Positions 43,321 to 60,116 of a stretch of DNA of 64,000 bases are shown here, one piece after another. The notes under the pieces are model-generated. The model was not told the origin of the DNA. It ran no database searches and was given only the letters and a program-made list of their open reading frames with translations. Numbering within the stretch: position 1 is the stretch's first letter; every line of letters starts with the position of its first letter. The DNA lies in the NCBI GenBank assembly GCA_048940925.1, contig JBHLOC010000002.1, positions 1-64,000 of the forward strand, given 5' to 3'. The stretch comes from Promethearchaeota archaeon. Lineage in GTDB: Archaea; Asgardarchaeota; Lokiarchaeia; Sigyniarchaeales; SOKP01. A program made the position numbers and the translations under genes.

Positions 43321-44653
<1,333 letters not shown>

Positions 44654-48069: not shown

Positions 48070-49470
48070 TTGGAAAATTGGTTATATATGAGTGAAAAAT
48101 CATTCGATGAAATATTTTCTGTTTTTGAAGAGATCTCTAACAGCTATAAAAGAAATAATCAATATTTTGACATTCTTTATGATTCTGAATCATCTACCTT
48201 TATTACAAAATCACGTACCTCAGAAGAAATAGTTATGAATGCAAAGAAATCTGGTATGGTTGCAAGAACATTTACAGGGATATGGAATGAAATAGCTACA
48301 ACTGAATTTTCAAATATTAACAATATCAAAGAAAAATTACCAAAAGTTGTGAACTTGGGTAAAAATCTGATGGAATTCGAAGGATGGAGTATAAATGAAG
48401 AAATAAAACCCAAAATTAATCCACTCAAAGTTTCAATTGATGAAAAAATCAAAAAGGTTAGACATATCTACGACTATGTGATGAACTATGATAAAAGAAT
48501 TATTAATACGGAAGTCAAATACCTAGAATACTTAACAGAACGAATCTTCTGTAATAATGAAGGATGTCAATTAAGACAAATAATCCCCAGAACAAAACTA
48601 TATATTATTCCTATAGCAAAAGAAGGAACTGTCGCAGAATATGATTATTACACTGATTCTGGTGAAATTGGTTTTGAAATTTTTAATAAGATTGATAATG
48701 AGTTGTTAGATAAAACTGCTCAAAATTCTTTGGACATGCTGCAAGCAGAATTGCCCCCTTCTGGAAAATATCCTGTCATTCTAGATCCTGGTATGACTGG
48801 AGTAGTTGCACATGAAAGTTTTGGACATGGTCTTGAAGCAGATCAAGTAATGCGGGATAGAAGCTATTTAAAAGCTAAACTTAATCAAAAAGTTGCGTCT
48901 GAAATATGTACAATATGTGATTCTCCTACAGTTTATAATGCTCTTGGAACATATTTTTTTGATGATGAGGGGATTAAAGCGAGTAAAAATGTATTGGTTC
49001 AGGATGGGGTATTAAAGGACTTCATATATGATAGACGAACCGCTTCTGCATTAAAAGCTATTCCAAAAGGAAACGGGAGAAGGGAAAGCTTTGCTCATCC
49101 TGTTCACCCAAGAATGACAAATACTTATTTTGAACCTGGAGATTATTCCCTAGAAGAAATGATTAAAGAAATCAAGTATGGAGTAATGTTGGTTAATGAA
49201 CTCTTCGGTATGGAAGATCCACTTGGAGGAGGGATGCAAAACACTTCTAAGAAAGGATATCTAATTGAGAATGGTAAAAAGACTAAATTATTGAAATCAA
49301 TAACTTTAAGTGGTCATGTATTGGAAACATTCCCTAAAATTGATGCAATTAGTAGAGATTTATTTGAAATAAATGGAGGAACATGTGGAAAGGGAGATGA
49401 AGATAGAGTTCCTGTAGGTAGTGGAGGTACTTATATTCGCATTAAAGAAGCATTAATTAGTCCTGGGTGA
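48070..49470 (+). CDS. tldD: TldD metalloprotease (ATG at 48088 is an alternative start)
   Basis: HESFGHGLEAD, FDDEG, GNGRR, PRMTNT, GTCGK. Confidence 0.88.
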   Translation: MENWLYMSEKSFDEIFSVFEEISNSYKRNNQYFDILYDSESSTFITKSRTSEEIVMNAKKSGMVARTFTGIWNEIATTEFSNINNIKEKLPKVVNLGKNLMEFEGWSINEEIKPKINPLKVSIDEKIKKVRHIYDYVMNYDKRIINTEVKYLEYLTERIFCNNEGCQLRQIIPRTKLYIIPIAKEGTVAEYDYYTDSGEIGFEIFNKIDNELLDKTAQNSLDMLQAELPPSGKYPVILDPGMTGVVAHESFGHGLEADQVMRDRSYLKAKLNQKVASEICTICDSPTVYNALGTYFFDDEGIKASKNVLVQDGVLKDFIYDRRTASALKAIPKGNGRRESFAHPVHPRMTNTYFEPGDYSLEEMIKEIKYGVMLVNELFGMEDPLGGGMQNTSKKGYLIENGKKTKLLKSITLSGHVLETFPKIDAISRDLFEINGGTCGKGDEDRVPVGSGGTYIRIKEALISPG

Positions 49471-50807
49471 TATTAAAGATGAGTCACGAAAAAATTGATT
49501 TAATTGAACAGACTCTCAAAGTGAAAAATATTGAGGAATATGAAATTTATTTCATTGAAGAAAAAACCTATGAAACAATGTTCTTAAAAAGTGACCCTGA
49601 AGTAGAAAGGGAAGTAGAAGATTTTGATTATTTCATCCGAATCCTTACTCAAAAAGGAGAGAAAACAGGAATTGGTGTTGTTAAAGGGAATTCTTTGGAT
49701 TCTAAAGAAATGGGAAAAAATATTGATACCTGTATTTTACTTTCTAAAAATAATATTACTTCAAACTATCATTTTCCCGAGAAGCGAACAATTCCAAAAA
49801 TTATTACTGCTGATAGCGCTATTTTGAAAGATCCAATTGGAATAAAAAATGATCAGAGTGAAGAACTAATGAACCAACTTAAAGAGCAAAAGGAGGTTGT
49901 ACCTACCTTTGGTCGGTTAAGAGTACATATAAAAAAAAGATTCTTAAGAAATAGTAATGAACTAAATCTTGATTCGATAAACACATTTTTTCATTTAGAA
50001 TCCTCCTTAAAGGCACAAAAAAATGGGAAATTGTCTGAATATTGGAATACAGAATACTTTAAAGAAAAAGAACATTTAAACTTTAAAAAAAGAGTAGAAA
50101 ATTGGGCAAAATTTGCAAAAGATACTTTAATAGCAGAACCGCCTAAACCTAATAAGGAAGCAATAGTTATTTTTACACCATATGTTTTAAAGGAAGCACT
50201 GATCCCTGTGATAGGATTTCATGCTTCAGGACGGTCTTTTAGCGAAGAAACTTCTGCTTACAATATAAATGAAGAAGTAGCTTCTAAAGATATCACACTT
50301 ATAGATGATGGACTCCTTAATGGTGGGTTATATACTAACGGTTGGGATGGTGAAGGAAATCCTCATCAGAGGACAGAAGTAATAAAAAATGGTGTATTCC
50401 AAAAACGATTGTATGATCAAAAATATGCTCTTTTAAATGGTGAGAACCCAACTGGAAATGGTATGAGAAGCAATTTTGGTGGAATTTATAATGGAGTTAG
50501 TAACTTTCATGTTGTTCCTGGCACTACATCTCTAGATGATATGATTTCTGATATAAAAGAAGGTTATTATATTGAGAAATTTTCCTGGTTAAACCCTGAA
50601 GAATTATCCGGATATTTTGGAGCGGAAATAAGAAATGGCTACTATATTAAAAATGGTGAATTTCAGAATTCTATAAAACTTGGAAATGTGAGTGGTAATG
50701 TTTTAGATATAATGAAAAATTGTCTTTGCATATCAAAAGAAGTAGAATTTTCAGAGAACTCTCTATTTCCATATATGTGTTTCTCTAATTTAAATGTCTC
50801 ATTTTAA
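49467..50807 (+). CDS. pmbA: TldE/PmbA family protein
   Basis: WDGEG and TGNG motifs, no HExxH; coupled to tldD. Confidence 0.8.
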   Translation: MILKMSHEKIDLIEQTLKVKNIEEYEIYFIEEKTYETMFLKSDPEVEREVEDFDYFIRILTQKGEKTGIGVVKGNSLDSKEMGKNIDTCILLSKNNITSNYHFPEKRTIPKIITADSAILKDPIGIKNDQSEELMNQLKEQKEVVPTFGRLRVHIKKRFLRNSNELNLDSINTFFHLESSLKAQKNGKLSEYWNTEYFKEKEHLNFKKRVENWAKFAKDTLIAEPPKPNKEAIVIFTPYVLKEALIPVIGFHASGRSFSEETSAYNINEEVASKDITLIDDGLLNGGLYTNGWDGEGNPHQRTEVIKNGVFQKRLYDQKYALLNGENPTGNGMRSNFGGIYNGVSNFHVVPGTTSLDDMISDIKEGYYIEKFSWLNPEELSGYFGAEIRNGYYIKNGEFQNSIKLGNVSGNVLDIMKNCLCISKEVEFSENSLFPYMCFSNLNVSF

Positions 50808-50983
50808 TTTTTTTTAAATATTATCTCTAAGAATAATATACGAATTTTTTAAAACCGATATATATTGAATTTAATATTTAATTCGTAGAAAATTAGTTCT
50901 AAAAGGTTTATATATTACATATACATTACTTAGATCAGAAAAATATTCTATCAAGTAAATTAAAACTAAAAAATGTGAAATAA

Positions 50984-52945
50984 ATGAAATCCTTAAACAA
51001 ATTTAAGTGTTATTTTTTAATTTTTGTAGTTTTTATTTCGGTATCTAATGTGTTTACTTTTTGCATGAGTTATAGTCAAATTCATGAATATTCAAAGCAA
51101 ATACCAATAGAAAAAACACTATTTTCAAATCCTCTATCTTCTTGGAATTTAGATGGCAATATTATATGTGATTCAGATAATATCCAAGAAAACCAGCAAA
51201 TATGCAGGGATGGATTTGGCGGTGCAATTATTGTATGGCAAGATTTTAGAAATGGTTCTCAATACGATATATATGCTCAGCATATAAATGCTGAGGGTAA
51301 TATTGAGTGGTTGCCTAATGGCATACCAGTCTGTACGAATGAATATAGTCAAATTAAACCTCAAATTTGTAATGATGGAACAGGAGGTGCAATTATTGTA
51401 TGGGAGGATAAAAGAGGTCAGAGTGGGACGAATTCTAACATTTATGCTCAGCGAATAAATTCAACTGGTGGTGTTGAGTGGATTGCTAATGGAACACCCA
51501 TTTCCACCACGATAAATAATGATAAATATAATCCTCAAATTTGTGCCAATGAGTCTGGAGGGGCAATAATGACCTGGGAATCTACGATTAATAATGAAAT
51601 TTACGCCCAAGCGATTGATTTAGACGGAAATGTCCAGTGGGCCACTAATGGTGAACTAATAGCTACTTTTGATTATAGAGGGGAACCTAAAATTTGCAGT
51701 GATGGAGCGGGAGGGGCTATTATTATATGGGAAGAGGGATTTTTGTCTGATTTAAATATTTATGCTCAGCGGATAAATTCAACTGGTGAGATTGAATGGA
51801 CACCTACAGGTGAACCTATATGTACAAAAGCAGAGAACCAGGAACATCCTCAAATTTGCAGTGATGGGGCTGGAGGAGCCCTAATAGCTTGGGAAGATAA
51901 TAGAGATATAGATTTTTTTGGCAGAGATATTTGGGCTCAACGGATCGATGCTAATGGAAACAAATTATGGGGAAGTAATGATGTTGGAGCATGCAGGGAG
52001 GATTATAATCAATATGAACCTTTTATTTGTAATGATGGTTCTGGAGGTGCTTATATCGTGTGGAGAGACGCAAGAACTACAGGTAGTGATATATACGCTC
52101 AGCGAATAGCTCCAAATGGAGAAAGACAGTGGAGAGTTGATGGCTTAGCTATATGTGATATGGTTGCTCATCAAGGATCTGCTAAAATTTGTAGCGATGG
52201 TTCTGGAGGGGCAATTATCGCATATCGAGGTTATGATCATTCTTATGGTTATGATGATATTTTCATTCAAAAAATTGATTCTAACGGAGATCATCAATGG
52301 TCTCATTATATAGATGATATAGGTTGGAATACAGATGAAATACCTGTATGTAAGGCATCTGGAGACCAATTTTCTCCTCAAATTTGTAGTGATGACGATG
52401 GTGGGGCTGTAGTTGTATGGAAAGATTATAGAAGCGGATCAGGTGGAGATATTTATGCTCAACATATAAGGAGCGCCCCTCCAACTTCTGAACGCATTAA
52501 TTTGATTGAAACCCATTCAGATGATACATATAATTTATATTATGTTTTATATGATGACCATGGGGGTGGAAAATATCGAATATTGGTAGAAGATCCAAAT
52601 GAAACTCAATATTTATATATAAATTGGGCTACATGGAATTCAGAAGTTAATTTAGATATACCAATTAATCGTACTATACAAGGTGATTTTATTTATACGA
52701 TTGAATATTATGATGATCATGAACAATTTGGTTATCCGGATTCATTTACAGTAAGGATAACACCACCCTATTCTGATGATGATGGAAATGGCGGCGATGA
52801 TGGCGGTGATGATGGTGATAGCAATGGTGACGGCGATGGAAATGGTAATGGAGGAGGTATAATTCCAGGATATAATATATTATTTTTGATTGGAGCTATT
52901 TGTATTTCCTCTCTATTTTTTACAAAAAAAAGGAGGAAGCAATAG
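50984..52945 (+). CDS. Secreted repeat protein (8 ~60-aa repeats, probable beta-propeller) with Gly/Asp linker and IPGY-TM anchor
   Basis: Eight copies of PQICSDGxGGAIIVWxD...DIYAQRI; ends IPGYNILFLIGAICISSLFFTKKRRKQ. Confidence 0.8.
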   Translation: MKSLNKFKCYFLIFVVFISVSNVFTFCMSYSQIHEYSKQIPIEKTLFSNPLSSWNLDGNIICDSDNIQENQQICRDGFGGAIIVWQDFRNGSQYDIYAQHINAEGNIEWLPNGIPVCTNEYSQIKPQICNDGTGGAIIVWEDKRGQSGTNSNIYAQRINSTGGVEWIANGTPISTTINNDKYNPQICANESGGAIMTWESTINNEIYAQAIDLDGNVQWATNGELIATFDYRGEPKICSDGAGGAIIIWEEGFLSDLNIYAQRINSTGEIEWTPTGEPICTKAENQEHPQICSDGAGGALIAWEDNRDIDFFGRDIWAQRIDANGNKLWGSNDVGACREDYNQYEPFICNDGSGGAYIVWRDARTTGSDIYAQRIAPNGERQWRVDGLAICDMVAHQGSAKICSDGSGGAIIAYRGYDHSYGYDDIFIQKIDSNGDHQWSHYIDDIGWNTDEIPVCKASGDQFSPQICSDDDGGAVVVWKDYRSGSGGDIYAQHIRSAPPTSERINLIETHSDDTYNLYYVLYDDHGGGKYRILVEDPNETQYLYINWATWNSEVNLDIPINRTIQGDFIYTIEYYDDHEQFGYPDSFTVRITPPYSDDDGNGGDDGGDDGDSNGDGDGNGNGGGIIPGYNILFLIGAICISSLFFTKKRRKQ

Positions 52946-53164
52946 TTTTACTTATCTAAATAATATATTTTTTCTTTTTATAAATTAAAAAACCATTAAT
53001 TTCTAATTATTTTTTTTAATCTTGATTTCAATTAAATTATAATTGCTTTTTCCTAACCCTATATCTTAAGCTCAAAAAATATTTTAACACTAATTCATAC
53101 TATTAATATATTAAATAAATAATATAATAGCTTAAAAAAAAAAGAAAAATAGGAAGGTATTTTA

Positions 53165-53426
53165 ATGGCCCGCTGTCCAGAAAGTTTTTTTGTATTAACA
53201 ATTTAACATGGAATGCGGAGGGTTTATGAAATACCATTCAGCTATAAAACAAGTCGTCTGTCAATCATGTGGACTGTCTTTAACGAGACATGAATTAGAT
53301 GGGTATTGGAAAAAGGTGAGGGATGAAAATATTACAGAAGCAGATGATACGCAGCAAAAGAAAAATCGTAGAAAAGAATGGCTTGAATGGTATTCGTCAT
53401 CCAAATCTGATAAGGAGAATTATTAA
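53165..53426 (+). CDS. Small zinc-ribbon protein split by a 31-nt insertion: join(53165..53182, 53214..53426), 76 aa
   Basis: Spliced MARCPECGGFMKYHSAIKQVVCQSCGLSL... restores two CxxC pairs; purine-rich aggaaggt precedes ATG 53165. Confidence 0.8.
53183..53213 (+). other. Putative BHB-type mRNA intron (31 nt)
   Basis: CUGU-CCAG-AA|A-GUU...AAC-AUGG-AA|U-GCGG: outer helix 4 bp, central helix 3 of 4 bp, inner helix 3 bp, two 3-nt bulges. Confidence 0.72.
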
Positions 53427-53444
53427 GAGTAGAAATAGTATATA

Positions 53445-53476
53445 ATTCTAAATAATCAGACAATTCTATTTAGAAT
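53445..53476. terminator. Inverted repeat between convergent genes
   Basis: attctaaata (53445..53454) / tatttagaat (53467..53476), perfect 10 bp. Confidence 0.35.
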
Positions 53477-53498
53477 AAGTAAATTGATTAATTATATA

Positions 53499-54692
53499 TT
53501 ATTTACCATAAATTCTTTCAATAATATCTTCTAATAATTCTGCTAATTTTTTAGATGGGATATCTAATAAAGTAATTTCTAGATGTCTTCCTCTAGTGGC
53601 GTCTTCAATTCGCACCGTTTTTGAAGCAATGATTTTTAGTTGGTTAAGTTGACGTATATATTTTCTAAAACTCATTTTAACATGTGGTTCTACCGAATAA
53701 TTCTCACATATTACCTTATACTCTTCATACGCGTCATCAACAAGGGTAAATGGAGTATCAGTGTTTATCAATGATCTGGTAATTCCATACAAGGCTAAAA
53801 GCTCCTGATCTTTTAATTCATCAATAATATCATTTCTAAAAGTAGGATATACATCATCTGATGCTTCTCTTATGATATCTGGTGAAATTGAGCTTAAACC
53901 TTCTTTATCGCAATATAAACCGCTTTTTCTTAATATTTCAATCCCGTGTCTCATATTTTTATGTTCTACAACTATTTGGGAAATCATAGTTAGTAACTCA
54001 TTATCAATAACATTTTCTTTAAGAGCTAATTCACTACGATATGTTAGAATTTGCAATGATTCATCAAAATTATATGGTTTAAGCTTTATTTTTTCATTTA
54101 ATCTACTTAAAATTCTTTCATTTTCAATTCGCATCCAATCCTTATTACGACACACTAACAATATTGATAACTTAGCATTTTGATGTCCAAACGTCTCTGC
54201 AATATCAAGAAATGCTAAAACTTCGTCAGGTTTTAAAAGATGAATTTCATCTATTATCAACAACATATATCCTTGGTCCCGAATTAATTGAGAGAGAATC
54301 AATTTTAATGCTTCATCATCTGAAAATCCACGTCCTGAACCATGTTGATATTTTGCGAGAAGCTCCCTGATTATCTTACTTTTAGAGCGAAAATTAATGC
54401 AATTATAATATTCAATAAAAAGATTGACATCTTTTTCAGTAGCAATCGTTTTAAAATTTCTACCAAAATATCTTGCGGTGCATGTTTTTCCAACCCCTCC
54501 CCTTCCTAATATTAAACAGTTGATAGAGGGCTGTTCCTCCTCTTCAACTATTCTTCTATAATTAAAAATTAAAGTTTTAAGAGCATCATCTCGGCAATAT
54601 AACTTATCTGGAACCCAACTCAAATCAAGAGTTCCAGCTCTTCGAAACACTGATTTTTTCCCAAATTCTTTTCTAAAGGCATCCTCGTCCAT
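53499..54692 (-). CDS. cdc6: Orc1/Cdc6 replication initiator
   Basis: WVPDKLYCRD, Walker A GRGGVGKT, YYNC, Walker B IIDEIH, C-terminal winged helix. Confidence 0.85.
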   Translation of the reverse strand: MDEDAFRKEFGKKSVFRRAGTLDLSWVPDKLYCRDDALKTLIFNYRRIVEEEEQPSINCLILGRGGVGKTCTARYFGRNFKTIATEKDVNLFIEYYNCINFRSKSKIIRELLAKYQHGSGRGFSDDEALKLILSQLIRDQGYMLLIIDEIHLLKPDEVLAFLDIAETFGHQNAKLSILLVCRNKDWMRIENERILSRLNEKIKLKPYNFDESLQILTYRSELALKENVIDNELLTMISQIVVEHKNMRHGIEILRKSGLYCDKEGLSSISPDIIREASDDVYPTFRNDIIDELKDQELLALYGITRSLINTDTPFTLVDDAYEEYKVICENYSVEPHVKMSFRKYIRQLNQLKIIASKTVRIEDATRGRHLEITLLDIPSKKLAELLEDIIERIYGK

Positions 54693-54829
54693 AATGAATC
54701 GAATAAGTATAATTTTATTTATTGATGTATAAGATATAACGTCAGAGATTTGGTAAAAAGTTTATTATCCTTAAGAATTTAAGTTTTTTAACTAATTAAA
54801 TGATTATGTAATAAATGAAATATATACAT

Positions 54830-55753
54830 TTAGATTTTATCCATAGTATTGAGGGGGTGCATCTGAGCATAACTTTCCTTTAATTTTGAAATGTCATTTT
54901 TTGCATAAATACGAGTTGTGTTTGGATTTGAGTGCCCTAAAATATCTTGTAATTCACTGATATCCATTCCTGATCTCCTCAGATGAGTCGCTCCTGTATG
55001 GCGAAAAATATGGGGTGTGATTATTTTGGAATCAGGAAATCCGCATTTTTCTTTGATTATTTTGATATCTGCTTGTACAACTCGAGGACTTAATTTTTGG
55101 TTCCTTGTATTGACTAACAAATGATCTTCCAAATCATACTTTATCCTGTTCTTTAGATGTTCTTCAAAAATTTCTAATGTTTTATGATCTACTGGCACAA
55201 TTCGCTCCTTATTTCCTTTTCCACGAAGTCTAATATATCCTCTTTCAAAATCAATATCTCTAATTTTAATATTACATAATTCACTCACTCTAGCCATGGT
55301 AGAATATAATAAGCGAACAATTAAATAATACCTTTTACTTTTTCTGGAATTAAACAAGCGTCGGTCTTTCAATTTATCAAATATTTTTTCTATATCAGGA
55401 ATTCTTAAGAATTTAGGTAAACTTTCTTCTATTTTAATCTTTGGAGACTTAATAGTACTCATTGGATCTTTTTGAATAAATTCATTAAGAACAAGAAATT
55501 TGAAAAATGAACGTAATGAAGCAATTTTACGACTTATACCTTTTTTAGTATACTTCATTTCATTTAGCTTTTTCAAGAAAAATCGTATCTTTTGCCGAAT
55601 AAGTGGAGAATTTAATTGGAGATCTCCAACAATACTAATAAATTTTAAAAGATCATATTTATATGCTTTAATTGTAGAAGCAGCACAACCTTCTTCCACT
55701 TCTTTTGCAATCAAGAAATCATCAATAAAATCAGAAACTTTAGACTCATTCAT
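54830..55753 (-). CDS. xerA: Tyrosine recombinase XerA/XerD family
   Basis: N-terminal SAM-like domain; ARVSEL, GKGNKER, HIFRH, LGH, TTRIY catalytic residues. Confidence 0.85.
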   Translation of the reverse strand: MNESKVSDFIDDFLIAKEVEEGCAASTIKAYKYDLLKFISIVGDLQLNSPLIRQKIRFFLKKLNEMKYTKKGISRKIASLRSFFKFLVLNEFIQKDPMSTIKSPKIKIEESLPKFLRIPDIEKIFDKLKDRRLFNSRKSKRYYLIVRLLYSTMARVSELCNIKIRDIDFERGYIRLRGKGNKERIVPVDHKTLEIFEEHLKNRIKYDLEDHLLVNTRNQKLSPRVVQADIKIIKEKCGFPDSKIITPHIFRHTGATHLRRSGMDISELQDILGHSNPNTTRIYAKNDISKLKESYAQMHPLNTMDKI

Positions 55754-55757
55754 AATA

Positions 55758-55785
55758 TGTGGATATGATACGATAAATATCTACA
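55758..55785. promoter_or_regulatory. dif-like 11-6-11 imperfect palindrome immediately upstream of xerA
   Basis: TGTGGATATGA-TACGAT-AAATATCTACA, within a 17-bp inverted repeat (55750..55793, one mismatch). Confidence 0.5.
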
Positions 55786-55835
55786 TATTATGATGTAATA
55801 TCTAAATAATAAATGAGAAAAATATTTAGAAAAAA

Positions 55836-56771
55836 TTATTCTTTTTGTTTTTGTCGAATATATTTACATGCATTTAAACCGGCTCGTGCTCCCTCTGCGG
55901 TGGCAAAGACCACTTGGAATAAACCACCTGTAACATCTCCTGCGGCATACACTCCTTTGAGATTGGTTCTTTGTTCTTCATCCACCTTAATATTCCCTTT
56001 CTCATCTAATTCAACACCAGCTTTCTTAAAAACAGAATTTGATGATATATGAGATAAAATAAACAAACAGTTTAGTTCAAACTCCTGTATTTCTTCTGAT
56101 TCTGATTTAGTAGACTTACAAATAATTTTTTTGATTACTCCTTCTGAATTTGCTACAGCTTCGATTACTACCATATTTTCAATAACTTCAATGCCATTTT
56201 CCTTTATTTCATATACTTTTTCAGGTAGTTCTTCAATTGCCACATCAGTAATTATTCGGACTATACAACCCATTTGATGAAGTGCAAGTGCATCCTCTAA
56301 CATTTCTTCATCTCGTCCATATAAATATACAACCTTATCTTTATATAAAGGACCATCACATAACGCACAATAAGATACACCGTATCCAAGTAAGGCGCCT
56401 TCACCCTTTATTACTTCTTTTCTTCGACCTCCTCCTGTAGCAATGATCACCACATCAGAAGTTATATTTGCTGTTCGTGTAGATGTCATATTGACTCCCA
56501 TACCTAGCATTAGTGAAATTACGTCACCCTTGATTAGTCTTATATTTTCAGAATAACTCTCAGCATGATTTCTAAATTTAGTTAACAGATGTTTTCCCTT
56601 AATATCAACTTCTCCAGGCCAGTTCTGTATTTCTTTTGCACGGGCTAAGGCAGATAACTCCTTTCCATCAAGAATTATTACATCTCTGTTTGCTCGGGCA
56701 CAATAAACCCCAGCACTTAATCCAGCTGGACCAGCACCAATGATTAAGATTTCACACTTAAACTCATCCAT
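55836..56771 (-). CDS. trxB: Thioredoxin reductase
   Basis: IIGAGPAGL, GVSYCALCDG, GVYAAGDVTG. Confidence 0.88.
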   Translation of the reverse strand: MDEFKCEILIIGAGPAGLSAGVYCARANRDVIILDGKELSALARAKEIQNWPGEVDIKGKHLLTKFRNHAESYSENIRLIKGDVISLMLGMGVNMTSTRTANITSDVVIIATGGGRRKEVIKGEGALLGYGVSYCALCDGPLYKDKVVYLYGRDEEMLEDALALHQMGCIVRIITDVAIEELPEKVYEIKENGIEVIENMVVIEAVANSEGVIKKIICKSTKSESEEIQEFELNCLFILSHISSNSVFKKAGVELDEKGNIKVDEEQRTNLKGVYAAGDVTGGLFQVVFATAEGARAGLNACKYIRQKQKE

Positions 56772-56873
56772 AAAACTTACCTCTTTGAAGTATTGAATAT
56801 AATAAAAAAACTCTTGAAAGTTAATACCTCTACAGTTACTAATTATAAAAATTATTATAATTTAATTCTATAT

Positions 56874-57812
56874 TTAATTGACAAAATAAAATATCAGAGA
56901 AAATATTCCTAAAAAAATCATAGTCGCTCCCATTCCTCGACCCATCGCTTTTGCTGATAACTTTTGTACAAAGTTTGAAACAATAATTCCCGCAAAAAAG
57001 GAACCTATGCCAAGATAGAAAACGAATTCCCAGTTAAAAAATAATTGACTTGTAAGTAGGTATCCTAATATTTGGTAAGTACTAAACGTAAAAATACACA
57101 TAATAATACTTAAAATTAAAGCAGTTCCTACACTTTTCTTTAAAGGATAACCATATAATACTATTAAAACTAGAGTGATGATGAAACCTGAATTCGCACC
57201 AAACATTCCTGAATTAAGTCCTATTATAATCCCTAAAACCAGTGTTAAAAGAAAATATAATTTCGAATAAGGTTTAATTACTCTTTCCAATCGCTCTTCT
57301 TCGGTATTTAACTTATTTTCTGGTGATTTCTCAAGATTTTCTAAATTTAGATTTTCTTCTTTATTATTCAAAAATCTTCTGGAAATTTTCTGAACTATCT
57401 CTTTCAATGTTTCAGAAGAAGGAAAACCTTTTAAAAGAATAGTAGAACCTAAGAAAATTATAAAAACAGGTAAGAACCAGCCGAAAATAAAACTTAACGG
57501 TGTCAAAATCAAAAGGAGAATACCGAAAAAAGAAGCAACTAAAGAGATTAGGATTAATAAAAAAATATTTTTATTCAAATAATATTGCTTTTTTCTTATA
57601 TAATTAATTGCTACAGAAGAAGCAGCAATTAAGTCATTTATAACATTTACAGCTATTGCCAATAACACATCTCCAGTCATTAAAAGTATAAAAGGCACTA
57701 CAACTCCTTGACCAGTTTGCCCTACAAAACTCATGCTTATTCCTACAAGCGCACCAATTAATACAAGAAGAATTACATAATAGAATTCTAATGTCAAATA
57801 ATACCAAATCAT
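56874..57812 (-). CDS. TauE/SafE (sulfite exporter) family membrane protein
   Basis: Two halves with G-rich motifs (FVGQTGQGVVVP; GMFGANSGFII...KKSVGTAL). Confidence 0.7.
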   Translation of the reverse strand: MIWYYLTLEFYYVILLVLIGALVGISMSFVGQTGQGVVVPFILLMTGDVLLAIAVNVINDLIAASSVAINYIRKKQYYLNKNIFLLILISLVASFFGILLLILTPLSFIFGWFLPVFIIFLGSTILLKGFPSSETLKEIVQKISRRFLNNKEENLNLENLEKSPENKLNTEEERLERVIKPYSKLYFLLTLVLGIIIGLNSGMFGANSGFIITLVLIVLYGYPLKKSVGTALILSIIMCIFTFSTYQILGYLLTSQLFFNWEFVFYLGIGSFFAGIIVSNFVQKLSAKAMGRGMGATMIFLGIFSLIFYFVN

Positions 57813-57971
57813 ACTTTTATTTAGTATCTAAAATAGTATTCTCAATTGAATTAAAATATACCTTAAAATTCAAAATATTTTAATGATTTAAGAAATTTTG
57901 TTTGATATCATTTCACTATTATGTTACAAAAAAAAATATAACAAAAAAAATCGAAATTAAGTGTAAAAATT

Positions 57972-60116
57972 ATGGATGTACCGTTAATATTATTTGTTGC
58001 CTTAATTGCTGGAGTAATTTCAATTGGAATGGCTCTCTATTTTGCAAAATTAGTACTGAAAGAAGATCCAGGAAATGAAAGAATGATTGAAGTATCTAGT
58101 TATATTGAAAAGGGGGCTAAAACATTCCTTAAAGTCCAATATAAAATATTAGGTATTTTTGTTGTAGTACTAGCAGTAGCATTATTATTTTTGCCTTCTC
58201 CATTTGAAGCTAGTCTTACTTATAAGAGATTAGTACCTGGTGCTTTAAATTGGGAACAAATGATTGCTTATATTATTGGTTCTGTGGGATCAATGATGGC
58301 AGGTTATTTAGGAATGATGACAGGTGTAAAAACAAATACCCGTTCTGCACAAGGCTGCACAATAAGCACCAAGAAAGGGTTTGAAGTTGCTTTTTTCGGT
58401 GGCTCAGTTATGGGTTTAGCAGTAGTTGGTGTAGCTCTAATCGGTATTTCTGTTCTATATTTTATTGTCCCGGATCCTATGATAGTTTTAGGCTTTAGTT
58501 TTGGTGCTAGCAGTGTGGCCCTTTTTATGAAAGCAGGAGGAGGTATCTACACTAAAACAGCAGATGTAGGCGCTGACCTTGTTGGAAAAGCAGAATATGA
58601 TTTACCTGAAGATGATCCTAGAAACCCCGCAACGATAGCTGATAATGTAGGCGACAACGTAGGGGATATTGCAGGGATGGGATCTGACCTCTTTGATTCT
58701 TATGTTGCCTCTATTGTAGCTGCTATGATATTAGCTGCAACCTTAGCTGCCTTTGCACCAGCATTTTCCCAAATATGGGGAGAAATGTCTGAAACTCATA
58801 GATATACTTTTGTAATATTCCCGGTTGTTGTAAGTGGTGTAGGTTTATTAGCTTCTTTGATTTGTATATATATAATTAAAATCAAAAGGGGAGAAGATCC
58901 TGGCAAATTATTAAATTTAGGAACTTATCTCGCTACAATTGTCTTTAGCGGATTTGCTGCGATTATTACGGCGATAATGACCATAAAATTAAGCAATGAT
59001 GAGATGATTTTTCTATGGAAACTTTATGCTTCTGTTGTAATTGGATTACTTGGTGGTCTTATTATCGGATTTACAAGTGACTACTTTACTAGTGATACTA
59101 GGAAACCAACAAGATCAATCGCAAATGCAGCTCAAGAAGGTGATGCAGTTGTGATTCTTAGTGGATTTTCTTATGGATTATTAAGCGTCGTTCCCCCTGC
59201 TATTGGGATTGTAATTGCTATGGCTGCTACTTATTTTCTAGGTGGATTATTTGGAGTGGCTATGGCGGCAGTAGGTATGCTTGCAATTGTGGGAACTATT
59301 GTCTCTAATGATGCTTACGGTCCAATTGTAGACAACGCTAGAGGGATTGCCGAACAAGGTGATTTAGGTGAAGATGTTATTCGAACTGCAGATAAATTAG
59401 ATTCAGCGGGAAATACAGCCAAAGCTATAACAAAGGGTTTTGCTATTGGTGCTGCAAATCTAACTGTGCTTGCCCTAATGTTTTCTTTCGCAACTGAGGC
59501 AAACGACATTCAAGAAAGCGCATTAGATGTAGTGGATTTACTTAAAGTAAATGTCTTAATTGGTGCATTTATTGGAGTAGTTGTGCCTGCATTATATTCT
59601 GCTTTATTAGTTCTCGCAGTTCAGAGGAATGCAGCTAAAATGGTTGACGAAATCAGAAGACAATTCAAAGAAAATCCTAAGATTTTATCAGGTGAAGTAG
59701 CAGCAGACTTTAATAAATGTATCACAATCGCGACAAGAGGTGCTTTAAAAGAGCTTGTATTACCTAGTATAATCGCAATCGCTATACCCATTGCAGTTGG
59801 AATCTTATTTGGTGTAGCAGGACTTGGCGCATTCTTAGCAGGTGCAATTTTATCTGGATTTGTGTTTGCCATCTTTATGAGCAATGCAGGCGGCAGTTGG
59901 GATAATGCGAAGAAATGGATTGAGGATGGCAACCTTGGAGGAAAAGGTACTGAAATTCATAAAGCCTCGATCACCGGAGATACAGTTGGCGATCCATTTA
60001 AAGATACTGCAGGACCAAGCATTAACACCCTATTAGTAGTAATGTCATTAACAGCGTCAATTTTTTTAGGATTCTTAATGCTTTTTGGAAATGGGGCAGG
60101 ATTGCTTATACTCTAA
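57972..60116 (+). CDS. hppA: Membrane-bound proton-translocating pyrophosphatase, K+-independent signature
   Basis: GGIYTKTADVGADLVGK, DNVGDNVGD, GDTVGDPFKD; GNTAKA carries the Lys of the K+-independent type. Confidence 0.93.
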   Translation: MDVPLILFVALIAGVISIGMALYFAKLVLKEDPGNERMIEVSSYIEKGAKTFLKVQYKILGIFVVVLAVALLFLPSPFEASLTYKRLVPGALNWEQMIAYIIGSVGSMMAGYLGMMTGVKTNTRSAQGCTISTKKGFEVAFFGGSVMGLAVVGVALIGISVLYFIVPDPMIVLGFSFGASSVALFMKAGGGIYTKTADVGADLVGKAEYDLPEDDPRNPATIADNVGDNVGDIAGMGSDLFDSYVASIVAAMILAATLAAFAPAFSQIWGEMSETHRYTFVIFPVVVSGVGLLASLICIYIIKIKRGEDPGKLLNLGTYLATIVFSGFAAIITAIMTIKLSNDEMIFLWKLYASVVIGLLGGLIIGFTSDYFTSDTRKPTRSIANAAQEGDAVVILSGFSYGLLSVVPPAIGIVIAMAATYFLGGLFGVAMAAVGMLAIVGTIVSNDAYGPIVDNARGIAEQGDLGEDVIRTADKLDSAGNTAKAITKGFAIGAANLTVLALMFSFATEANDIQESALDVVDLLKVNVLIGAFIGVVVPALYSALLVLAVQRNAAKMVDEIRRQFKENPKILSGEVAADFNKCITIATRGALKELVLPSIIAIAIPIAVGILFGVAGLGAFLAGAILSGFVFAIFMSNAGGSWDNAKKWIEDGNLGGKGTEIHKASITGDTVGDPFKDTAGPSINTLLVVMSLTASIFLGFLMLFGNGAGLLIL

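What the first reader, a model, noticed from the sequence alone, without database searches (positions are those of the whole stretch)
53165..53426. Second 31-nt BHB intron, splitting the first CxxC of a Zn-ribbon gene next to cdc6
Seen: ATG GCC CGC TGT CCA GAA [AGTTTTTTTGTATTAACAATTTAACATGGAA] TGC GGA GGG. The ORF track starts at an ATG inside the insertion and gives a protein with only half of the first Zn knuckle. Removing 53183..53213 gives MARCPECGG...CQSCG. Fold: exon helix CUGU/GCGG, central helix CCAG/AUGG (one G-A mismatch), bulges AAA and AAU, intron helix GUU/AAC and an apical UUGU/ACAA hairpin. Cuts after the 2nd bulge nt (AA|A, AA|U) give the in-frame junction. Caveat: the GAA at both ends lets the junction slide and could also be read as a 3-bp target duplication. 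Inference: an EndA-spliced mRNA intron.
Basis: partly seen in the sequence, partly recalled or inferred. Interest (0 to 1): 0.88.

Follow-up and report, generated by a model that had tools for sequence, protein, structure and literature searches.

The report
tRNA-type mini-intron in Asgard zinc-ribbon gene
A 31-base hairpin interrupts the sixth codon boundary of a small zinc-ribbon gene in a Lokiarchaeia (Asgard) genome and has the shape cut out by the tRNA-splicing enzyme; relatives either carry a different-sequence insert at exactly the same spot or have the uninterrupted gene, so it is almost certainly a real mRNA intron of a kind so far documented in archaeal coding regions only for cbf5.

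Summary
Bases 53183-53213 separate ATG-GCC-CGC-TGT-CCA-GAA from TGC-GGA-GGG. Removing them gives MARCPECGG...CQSCG.

The intron reading is strongly supported by comparison, but not by RNA data, because no RNA run was listed.
- Of 69 orthologous loci, 51 are uninterrupted with exactly the predicted junction.
- 18 loci carry a 28-31 nt insert at the identical position. A class-wide pattern scan adds a third lineage.
- The inserts differ in sequence, yet all fit an hBHBh' fold. 85.5% of cells pair, against 27-39% when partners are slid, and six pairs show double changes.
- In intron-bearing genes exon 1 varies only at third codon positions and always encodes MARCPE. The Pro and Glu codons are fixed as CCA-GAA, which the helix and bulge need.
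- The genome encodes a catalytic EndA subunit with the Y/H/K triad and the specificity-loop lysine, a second non-catalytic paralogue, and RtcB.

Ribosome hopping, a mobile element, a truncated start and an assembly artefact are each contradicted.

purA in the same window shows the same pattern: 13 of 30 orthologues are interrupted.

This scan noted the same intron before in two other genomes, and other candidate mRNA introns in this genome.

It is a new member of a known kind (the cbf5-type BHB pre-mRNA intron), and it is of high interest because the host is an Asgard archaeon.

The parts
53152..53158 (+). Shine-Dalgarno-like GGAAGGT, 6 nt upstream of the exon-1 ATG
   Evidence: Read directly. 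A GGT-containing purine block at the same distance is kept in intron-bearing and intron-less orthologues. Its function as a ribosome-binding site is inferred.
53165..53182 (+). Exon 1: ATG GCC CGC TGT CCA GAA (MARCPE). It carries the first Cys of the zinc ribbon.
   Evidence: In 16 intron-bearing genes of the genus only 3 of 18 sites vary. All three are third codon positions, and all 16 encode MARCPE.
53183..53213 (+). 31-nt BHB intron. By sequence alone its borders can slide within GAA/A; the BHB rule places the cuts after 53182 and after 53213.
   Evidence: The intron is absent from 51 orthologues, which have the exact junction.
53173..53180 (+). 5' strands of exon helix H1 (CUGU 53173-76) and central helix H2 (CCAG 53177-80)
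   Evidence: H1 is 97% paired across 18 sequences. The two middle pairs of H2 are invariant. The Pro codon is CCA in 18 of 18 intron-bearing genes, against 16 of 33 intron-less genes of the genus.
53181..53183 (+). 5' bulge AAA. The predicted cut is after the second base, between 53182 and 53183.
   Evidence: the bulge is AAA, AAU or AAC in all 18. The cut position is inferred from the canonical BHB rule and from the intron-less junction.
53184..53207 (+). Intron-internal hairpin: H3 GUU/AAC, a 3x3 U loop, and apical UUGU-AUUA-ACAA
   Evidence: The closing pair is G-C in 16 and C-G in 2. The apical stem is replaced by unrelated paired sequences in other species.
53208..53211 (+). 3' strand of central helix H2 (AUGG). 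It also creates the in-frame ATG that gene callers use.
   Evidence: This strand is CUGA in 13 relatives and CUGG (a perfect helix) in L056 and G103.
53212..53214 (+). 3' bulge AAU. The predicted cut is after the second base, between 53213 and 53214.
   Evidence: The cut is inferred.
53214..53426 (+). Exon 2, including the stop codon: CGGFMKYHSAIKQVVCQSCG... plus a long C-terminal helix. H1 3' strand GCGG lies at 53215-18.
53499..54692 (-). Convergent orc1/cdc6 gene, a conserved neighbour of the zinc-ribbon gene
   Evidence: Pfam Cdc6_lid, Cdc6_C and AAA_22. Synteny holds in all genus loci with enough flank. cdc6 lies downstream in the same direction in another family.

Best explanation
The 31 bases at 53183-53213 are a bulge-helix-bulge (BHB) intron in the pre-mRNA of a 76-aa C4 zinc-ribbon protein.

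Proposed steps:
1. In the transcript, codons 3-6 (CUGU CCAG AA) pair with the 3' end of the insert and the first bases of exon 2 (AUGG AA U GCGG). This forms an exon helix, a 4-position central helix and two 3-nt bulges on opposite strands. A small intron hairpin sits on top.
2. The host's two-subunit splicing endonuclease cuts after the second base of each bulge. That enzyme is an EndA alpha subunit with the specificity-loop lysine plus a non-catalytic paralogue.
3. RtcB joins the exons. The result is ...UGU CCA GAA|UGC GGA..., and the mRNA is translated as MARCPECGG...CQSCG.
4. Unspliced RNA can give only a 13-residue peptide or a protein lacking an invariant zinc ligand.

Shown: the insert, its fold geometry, its structure-preserving variation across species, the exact intron-less junction in relatives, coding constraint on exon 1, and the presence of the enzymes.

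Inferred: that cleavage and ligation happen, the exact cut sites, and that EndA and RtcB are the agents.
For: (1) 51 of 69 orthologues are uninterrupted with the predicted junction. 18 carry a 28-31 nt insert at the identical site. A class-wide pattern scan of 161 genomes finds 19 genomes with one hit each, all in this gene, and 0 hits for the reversed control. The hits fall in three lineages: genus g1, genus g28 and family f6.

(2) All 18 fit hBHBh' in the same register. On the alignment 85.5% of cells pair, against 27-39% with partners slid by 1-3 columns. Six pairs show changes on both sides, and 0 of 500 shuffles reach the observed values.

(3) Exon 1 of the intron-bearing genes varies only at codon third positions and always encodes MARCPE. 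In contrast, 25 of the 30 upstream bases vary. C4, P5, E6 and C7 are invariant in the protein family.

(4) The Pro codon is CCA and the Glu codon GAA in 18 of 18 intron-bearing genes, against 16 of 33 intron-less genes of the genus (Fisher 2.5e-4, not corrected for phylogeny).

(5) Independent assemblies carry insert variants. These include JGI/NCBI and Logan contigs, the related MAGs L002 and L032, and environmental loci L088/L089 and L093-95.

(6) The genome has two EndA paralogues. One aligns with the A. pernix catalytic subunit 3p1z_B, including the EKPR lysine and the Y/H/K triad. It also has RtcB.

(7) purA in the same window shows the same interrupted/uninterrupted pattern, 13 against 17.
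Against: There is no RNA evidence, so splicing itself is unobserved.

The central helix is imperfect in most versions. It has a G.A mismatch in this genome and a C.A mismatch in 13 relatives. It is a perfect 4 bp only in L056 and G103.

The single-sequence fold is not significantly more stable than shuffles. Its MFE prefers a one-base-shifted register, which would give a wrong-frame junction.

The codon-usage test and the shuffle controls are inflated by shared ancestry.
Confidence: 0.86

Rival explanations
1. The insert is an unspliced disruption. The gene is expressed from an internal start (ATG 53208 here, Met11 elsewhere) as a truncated protein, or it is a decaying pseudogene.
For: Gene callers produce such products: the 72-aa ORF, and many 66-aa database entries. 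An in-frame ATG lies in the insert in the three closest species.
Against: Exon 1 stays under coding constraint in all 16 intron-bearing genes of the genus. The lost Cys is invariant in the family. No in-frame ATG is present in most insert variants. None of the 18 interrupted copies has a stop or frameshift in exon 2. The helices covary.
Confidence: 0.05
2. Translational bypass, as in T4 gene 60. The ribosome takes off at GAA, skips the hairpin and lands on a matching codon before TGC.
For: In this genome GAA precedes and ends the insert, and a hairpin lies between the two.
Against: The last three insert bases are GAA in only 2 of 18 versions and AAA in 12. The conserved pairings involve exon 2 bases beyond any landing site (H1), which hopping does not need. 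No stop codon directly follows the take-off codon.
Confidence: 0.02
3. The insert is removed at the RNA level by some agent other than EndA/RtcB, or the BHB is cleaved by EndA mainly as a regulatory or degradative cut without efficient ligation.
For: Nothing here identifies the enzyme directly. An EndA-processed BHB in the 5' UTR of Haloferax HVO_1309 affects expression (PMC7714728).
Against: The geometry, with 3-nt bulges 4 positions apart and cuts giving the exact orthologous junction, is the EndA signature. The insert is far too small for a group I or II intron. The conserved exon 1 coding sequence implies that a joined product is made.
Confidence: 0.06
4. The insert is a miniature mobile element with a 3-bp target duplication, or an assembly artefact.
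For: GAA flanks the insert in this genome.
Against: The genome holds no second copy. The duplication is not kept in relatives. The same site is occupied in independently assembled genomes and contigs.
Confidence: 0.01

Closest known systems
cbf5 pre-mRNA BHB intron of Crenarchaeota (Watanabe et al. 2002; Yokobori et al. 2009, PMC2738675)
   Same: It is a short BHB-bounded intervening sequence inside a protein-coding region. It is presumed to be cut by the tRNA-splicing endonuclease. Its distribution among related species is patchy, implying gain and precise loss.
   Different: The gene differs (a 76-aa zinc-ribbon protein rather than a pseudouridine synthase) and so does the phylum (Lokiarchaeia/Asgard). 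The intron sits only 18 nt into the ORF. It is polymorphic within one genus (16 of 49 loci examined). It is not an isolated case in its genome, because purA in the same window is also interrupted. Splicing has been shown experimentally for cbf5 but not here.
Non-canonical and multiple tRNA introns of Asgard and TACK archaea, processed by (alpha-beta)2 EndA with the specificity loop (PMC5829648; bioRxiv 10.64898/2026.10.13.758758)
   Same: The hBHBh' or relaxed BHB geometry is the same, the size range is similar, and the enzyme set is the same. The host genome has many intron-containing tRNA genes.
   Different: The substrate is an mRNA. [quoted passage not shown]
BHB element in the 5' UTR of Haloferax volcanii HVO_1309 mRNA (PMC7714728)
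   Same: It is an mRNA processed at a BHB by the splicing endonuclease.
   Different: That element lies in the untranslated leader and does not interrupt codons.
Translational bypass in phage T4 gene 60
   Same: A short hairpin-containing gap lies between two in-frame coding segments.
   Different: The matched take-off and landing codons are absent in 16 of 18 versions, and the pairing extends into exon 2.

Membership tests
Archaeal BHB (hBHBh') intron | [quoted passage not shown] | tested here: met
   The two bulges lie 4 positions apart in all 18 versions. The central helix is a perfect 4 bp in L056 and G103, and 3 bp plus one mismatch in the others, including this genome. Most copies therefore have a slightly relaxed form.
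Archaeal BHB (hBHBh') intron | Flanking exon-exon helix (h) and intron helix (h') | tested here: met
   H1 is 97% paired and the two H3 closing pairs are 97% paired across 18 sequences. Every intron core folds as a hairpin.
Archaeal BHB (hBHBh') intron | Helices kept by compensatory change across homologues | tested here: met
   Six pairs show changes on both sides. The covariation score is 0.256, against 0.05-0.15 for slid partners, and 0 of 500 shuffles are as high. The caveat is that the sequences are related.
Archaeal BHB (hBHBh') intron | Cuts after the second bulge base give a functional joined product | tested here: met
   The predicted junction CCAGAA|TGCGG equals the sequence of 51 uninterrupted orthologues. 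It restores the invariant CPEC knuckle.
Archaeal BHB (hBHBh') intron | Excision and ligation observed in RNA (spliced junction, circular intron) | not testable with these tools
   No RNA run was listed for this DNA.
Archaeal BHB (hBHBh') intron | Host encodes a splicing endonuclease and an RtcB ligase | tested here: met
   PF01974 hits twice, on C58 and C18, and PF01139 once, on C40. The alpha subunit aligns with 3p1z_B and keeps Y, H, K and the loop lysine. The second paralogue lacks the catalytic His and Tyr.
cbf5 intron lineage of Crenarchaeota | Located in the cbf5 gene at the orthologous site | tested here: not met
   The host gene is a 76-aa zinc-ribbon protein with no Pfam family above threshold. 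This intron works like the cbf5 intron but is not a member of that lineage.
Programmed translational bypass | Matched take-off and landing codons flanking the gap | tested here: not met
   The would-be landing triplet is GAA in 2 of 18 versions.
Miniature transposable element | Multiple copies in the genome and a target-site duplication | tested here: not met
   The element is unique in the 4.8-Mb assembly. The flanking GAA repeat is not conserved.
C4 zinc ribbon | Two CxxC knuckles on a beta-ribbon | tested here: met
   C4, C7, C22 and C25 are invariant. The AlphaFold model of orthologue L006 has strands at 10-14 and 19-22 followed by a helix at 31-75, with pLDDT 78. There are only sub-threshold Pfam ribbon hits and no PDB match at E<=0.001.

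The most novel reading that the evidence does not exclude
This intron is one visible member of a general, still undescribed layer of gene expression in Lokiarchaeia. In this reading, dozens of protein-coding mRNAs carry 28-32 nt BHB micro-introns, often near the 5' end and inside essential motifs. The tRNA-splicing endonuclease and RtcB remove them. The introns are repeatedly gained at proto-splice sites where codons already supply half of the motif, and repeatedly lost with precision. Routine mRNA splicing would then exist in the closest archaeal relatives of eukaryotes, and many Asgard gene models would be mis-called.
Probability: 0.6. Interest if true: 0.9.

Novelty: new member of a known kind. 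Interest (0 to 1): 0.8.

Why it matters
Protein-coding BHB introns have been documented in archaea for essentially one gene, cbf5 in Crenarchaeota, plus one 5'-UTR element in Haloferax (PMC7714728, PMC2738675). My searches of the held library found no report of them in Asgard archaea.

Here an Asgard genome carries at least two within 10 kb. Each is polymorphic among congeners, and each is supported by intron-less orthologues with the exact junction.

If RNA data confirm splicing, four things follow.
- EndA/RtcB would be shown to act routinely on mRNAs in the lineage nearest to eukaryotes.
- A natural series of presence/absence alleles would be available for studying intron gain and precise loss.
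- Codons would be seen to be co-opted as half of a splice motif.
- A systematic annotation error would be exposed: public databases hold many 66-72 aa truncated versions of this 76-aa protein.

Tried and rejected
**RNA evidence.** The look-up of sequencing runs on window 49000-58000 with kind rna listed no RNA holder, so read laying could not be used.

**Genome-wide scan.** I wrote a scan of the genome for the relaxed BHB rule combined with joining of open frames. The first version timed out. The vectorised version gave about 475,000 motif hits, both for the true register and for slid controls. After a G-C filter it gave 130 candidates, against 107 and 110 in the controls. The scan therefore does not discriminate in this 30% GC genome, and I draw no count from it.

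**Single-sequence thermodynamics.** z-scores of -0.87 and -1.8 are not evidence by themselves.

**Shifted MFE register.** The register UCCA/UGGA would remove 33 nt and give MARCPERRRV..., which destroys the second knuckle. It is not available in the CUGA-type relatives, so I rejected it.

**Stops inside distant orthologue matches.** These are read-through of natural stop codons, not further introns.

**The 66-aa database entries.** They are not all intron-bearing. L090-92 are intron-less genes with a GTG start.

**Protein function.** Pfam and NCBIfam give only sub-threshold generic zinc-ribbon hits. Foldseek against the PDB gave nothing at E<=0.001; the best local match is the TFS4 ribbon, 7oqy_Y.

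**Repeat search.** blastn-short with the insert found no second copy in the genome.

Full report
**What is in the sequence.**
- An ATG at 53165 lies 6 nt downstream of a GGAAGGT block. It opens ATG GCC CGC TGT CCA GAA (53165-53182).
- The next 31 bases (53183-53213) shift the frame and bring a TAA into the exon-1 frame, giving MARCPESFFVLTI and then a stop.
- From 53214 the sequence reads TGC GGA GGG TTT ATG AAA ... to a stop at 53424-53426.
- The mechanical ORF list starts at an ATG inside the insert (53208). It yields a 72-aa product with three of four zinc ligands.

The window is 27-34% GC. It is contig 41 of a 4.8-Mb, 90-contig assembly with 29.6% GC. Database names of the protein's relatives place the organism in Lokiarchaeia/Promethearchaeota, that is Asgard.

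**Comparative test.**
I searched the exon-2 protein against whole genomes of relatives and fetched every matching locus. This gave 69 orthologous loci.
- 51 are uninterrupted. They read ATG GCN CGN TGY CCN GAR TGY GGN GG, which is MARCPECGG, exactly the junction obtained by deleting 53183-53213.
- 18 carry an insert of 28, 29 or 31 nt at the identical position. Of these, 16 are among the 49 loci of the genus and 2 are in another family of the class.

A pattern scan of 161 genomes of the class gave 19 genomes with one hit each. The pattern was CCAGAA, then 25-32 unspecified bases, then TGYGSNGG, then four unspecified bases, then ATGAA. All hits are in this gene, and the reversed control gave none. 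The scan added a third lineage, G103 of another genus.

Environmental contigs from independent assemblies (JGI/NCBI, Logan, ENA) carry further variants. This excludes an assembly artefact.

The insert has no other copy in the genome.

**Structure.**
- **H1 (exon helix):** CUGY with GYGG, 3-4 pairs.
- **H2 (central helix):** CCAG with AUGG, CUGA or CUGG.
- **Bulges:** a 5' bulge AAN and a 3' bulge NNU, each of 3 nt.
- **Intron core:** closed by G-C, or by C-G in the other family. It is topped by a hairpin whose sequence is unrelated between groups (UUGU/ACAA, GGC/GCC, GCAU/AUGU, CUAGAAG/CUUCUAG and others).

On the MAFFT alignment A1 the named structure pairs 85.5% of cells, against 27-39% when the 3' partners are slid by 1-3 columns. 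Six pairs show changes on both sides, and no shuffle out of 500 reaches the observed values. RNAalifold independently recovers H1, H3 and the apical stem.

The central helix is perfect only in L056 and G103. This genome and its two closest relatives have a G.A mismatch next to the 5' bulge. Thirteen others have a C.A mismatch at the outer end. The motif is therefore slightly relaxed in most versions.

For the window's own sequence, the MFE prefers a one-base-shifted central helix. That register would remove 33 nt, would ruin the second knuckle, and is not available to the other variants.

**Selection.**
In the 16 intron-bearing genes of the genus, exon 1 varies at 3 of 18 sites. All three are third codon positions, and all 16 encode MARCPE. 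By contrast, 25 of the 30 bases upstream vary.

C4, P5, E6, C7, C22 and C25 are invariant in 27 family members. Exon 1 is therefore translated in frame with exon 2.

The structure also constrains codon choice. Pro is CCA and Glu is GAA in 18 of 18 intron-bearing genes, against 16 of 33 intron-less genes of the genus (Fisher 2.5e-4, uncorrected for shared ancestry).

**Rivals.**
- **Ribosome hopping** needs matched take-off and landing codons. The last insert triplet is GAA in only 2 of 18 versions.
- **A mobile element** needs other copies and a kept target duplication. Neither is seen.
- **A truncated start** would drop an invariant ligand, and most variants have no in-frame ATG in the insert.

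**Machinery.**
The genome has two PF01974 genes and one RtcB gene.

The 198-aa EndA aligns over its length with the Aeropyrum pernix catalytic subunit (3p1z_B, E 4e-33). It keeps the Tyr/His/Lys triad and the lysine of the EKPR loop. That lysine is K44 of the Crenarchaea-specific loop, which PMC5829648 links to cleavage of relaxed BHB motifs and reports as conserved in Asgard.

The 200-aa paralogue lacks the catalytic Tyr and His. This fits a structural beta subunit, which is an inference.

ARAGORN predicts many intron-containing tRNA genes in the genome.

**History.**
On a tree of the neighbouring cdc6 gene (46 rows), the intron state needs at least 9 changes. At least 4 of these are forced by well-supported branches.
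- The intron occurs in every major subclade of the 41-row ingroup. It is absent from the 5-row outgroup clade.
- The shared ends (AGU...ACCUGAAA) within the genus suggest one origin followed by many precise losses.
- Those same bases are structurally constrained, however, so repeated gain at a proto-splice site is not excluded.
- The inserts in genus g28 and family f6 share no core sequence with them.

**The gene.**
The spliced product is a 76-aa protein with an N-terminal C4 ribbon and a long basic C-terminal helix (model of orthologue L006, pLDDT 78).
- No Pfam or NCBIfam family is above threshold.
- There is no significant PDB match.
- Homologues were found only in Lokiarchaeia-type metagenomes.
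- The gene is a conserved neighbour of orc1/cdc6. The two are convergent in the genus and co-directional in another family.

A role with the replication initiator is a guess. It was not tested.

**Context.**
It shows the same signature. Of 30 genus orthologues, 13 carry an insert of about 31 nt at the same codon and 17 read WGDEGKG without interruption. The species that carry the two introns are not the same set.

Earlier notes of this scan report the zinc-ribbon intron in two other genomes, and a dozen or more other candidates in this genome. I tested only purA.

Literature searches of the held library found cbf5 and Haloferax HVO_1309 as the only mRNA BHB cases (PMC7714728, PMC2738675). A 2026 preprint on Asgard tRNA introns does not treat mRNAs.

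**Verdict.**
The missing piece is direct RNA evidence. This is a new member of the known kind "BHB intron in a protein-coding mRNA". It is notable for its host lineage, its within-genus polymorphism, and the fact that it is not alone in its genome.

Noticed in passing
window 44583-44613 (minus strand), purA: A 31-nt insert splits TGG GGA G|AC GAA GGA (WGDEGKGK, the P-loop). It has a GGGG/CCCC central helix. Among 30 genus orthologues, 13 carry an insert at the same site and 17 are uninterrupted. The species set differs from that of the zinc-ribbon intron: G076, for example, has the zinc-ribbon intron but an intact purA.
   Followed up: partly
window 53165-53426 with 53499-54692; loci L053, L054, L057, L059-L062: The small zinc-ribbon gene is a conserved neighbour of orc1/cdc6 across the order. 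The two genes are convergent in the genus. In family f2 cdc6 lies directly downstream in the same direction. This hints at a functional link to replication initiation.
   Followed up: no
public protein collection: About a quarter of the database relatives are 66-67 aa gene calls that start at Met11. Some come from intron-bearing genes (L088, L093). Others are intron-less genes with a GTG start that the caller missed (L090-92). Together they show a systematic mis-annotation of this family.
   Followed up: partly
window 50984-52945 (+): This is a 653-aa secreted or anchored protein with about ten repeats of a GGAIIVWED...IYAQRI motif, a Gly/Asp-rich tail and a C-terminal hydrophobic anchor. It has no Pfam family. 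It is not the upstream neighbour in any of the other loci examined.
   Followed up: no
G000 contigs: ARAGORN calls most tRNA genes of this genome as intron-containing, several at non-canonical positions. It also calls a tRNA-SeC. The exact intron borders were not checked.
   Followed up: no
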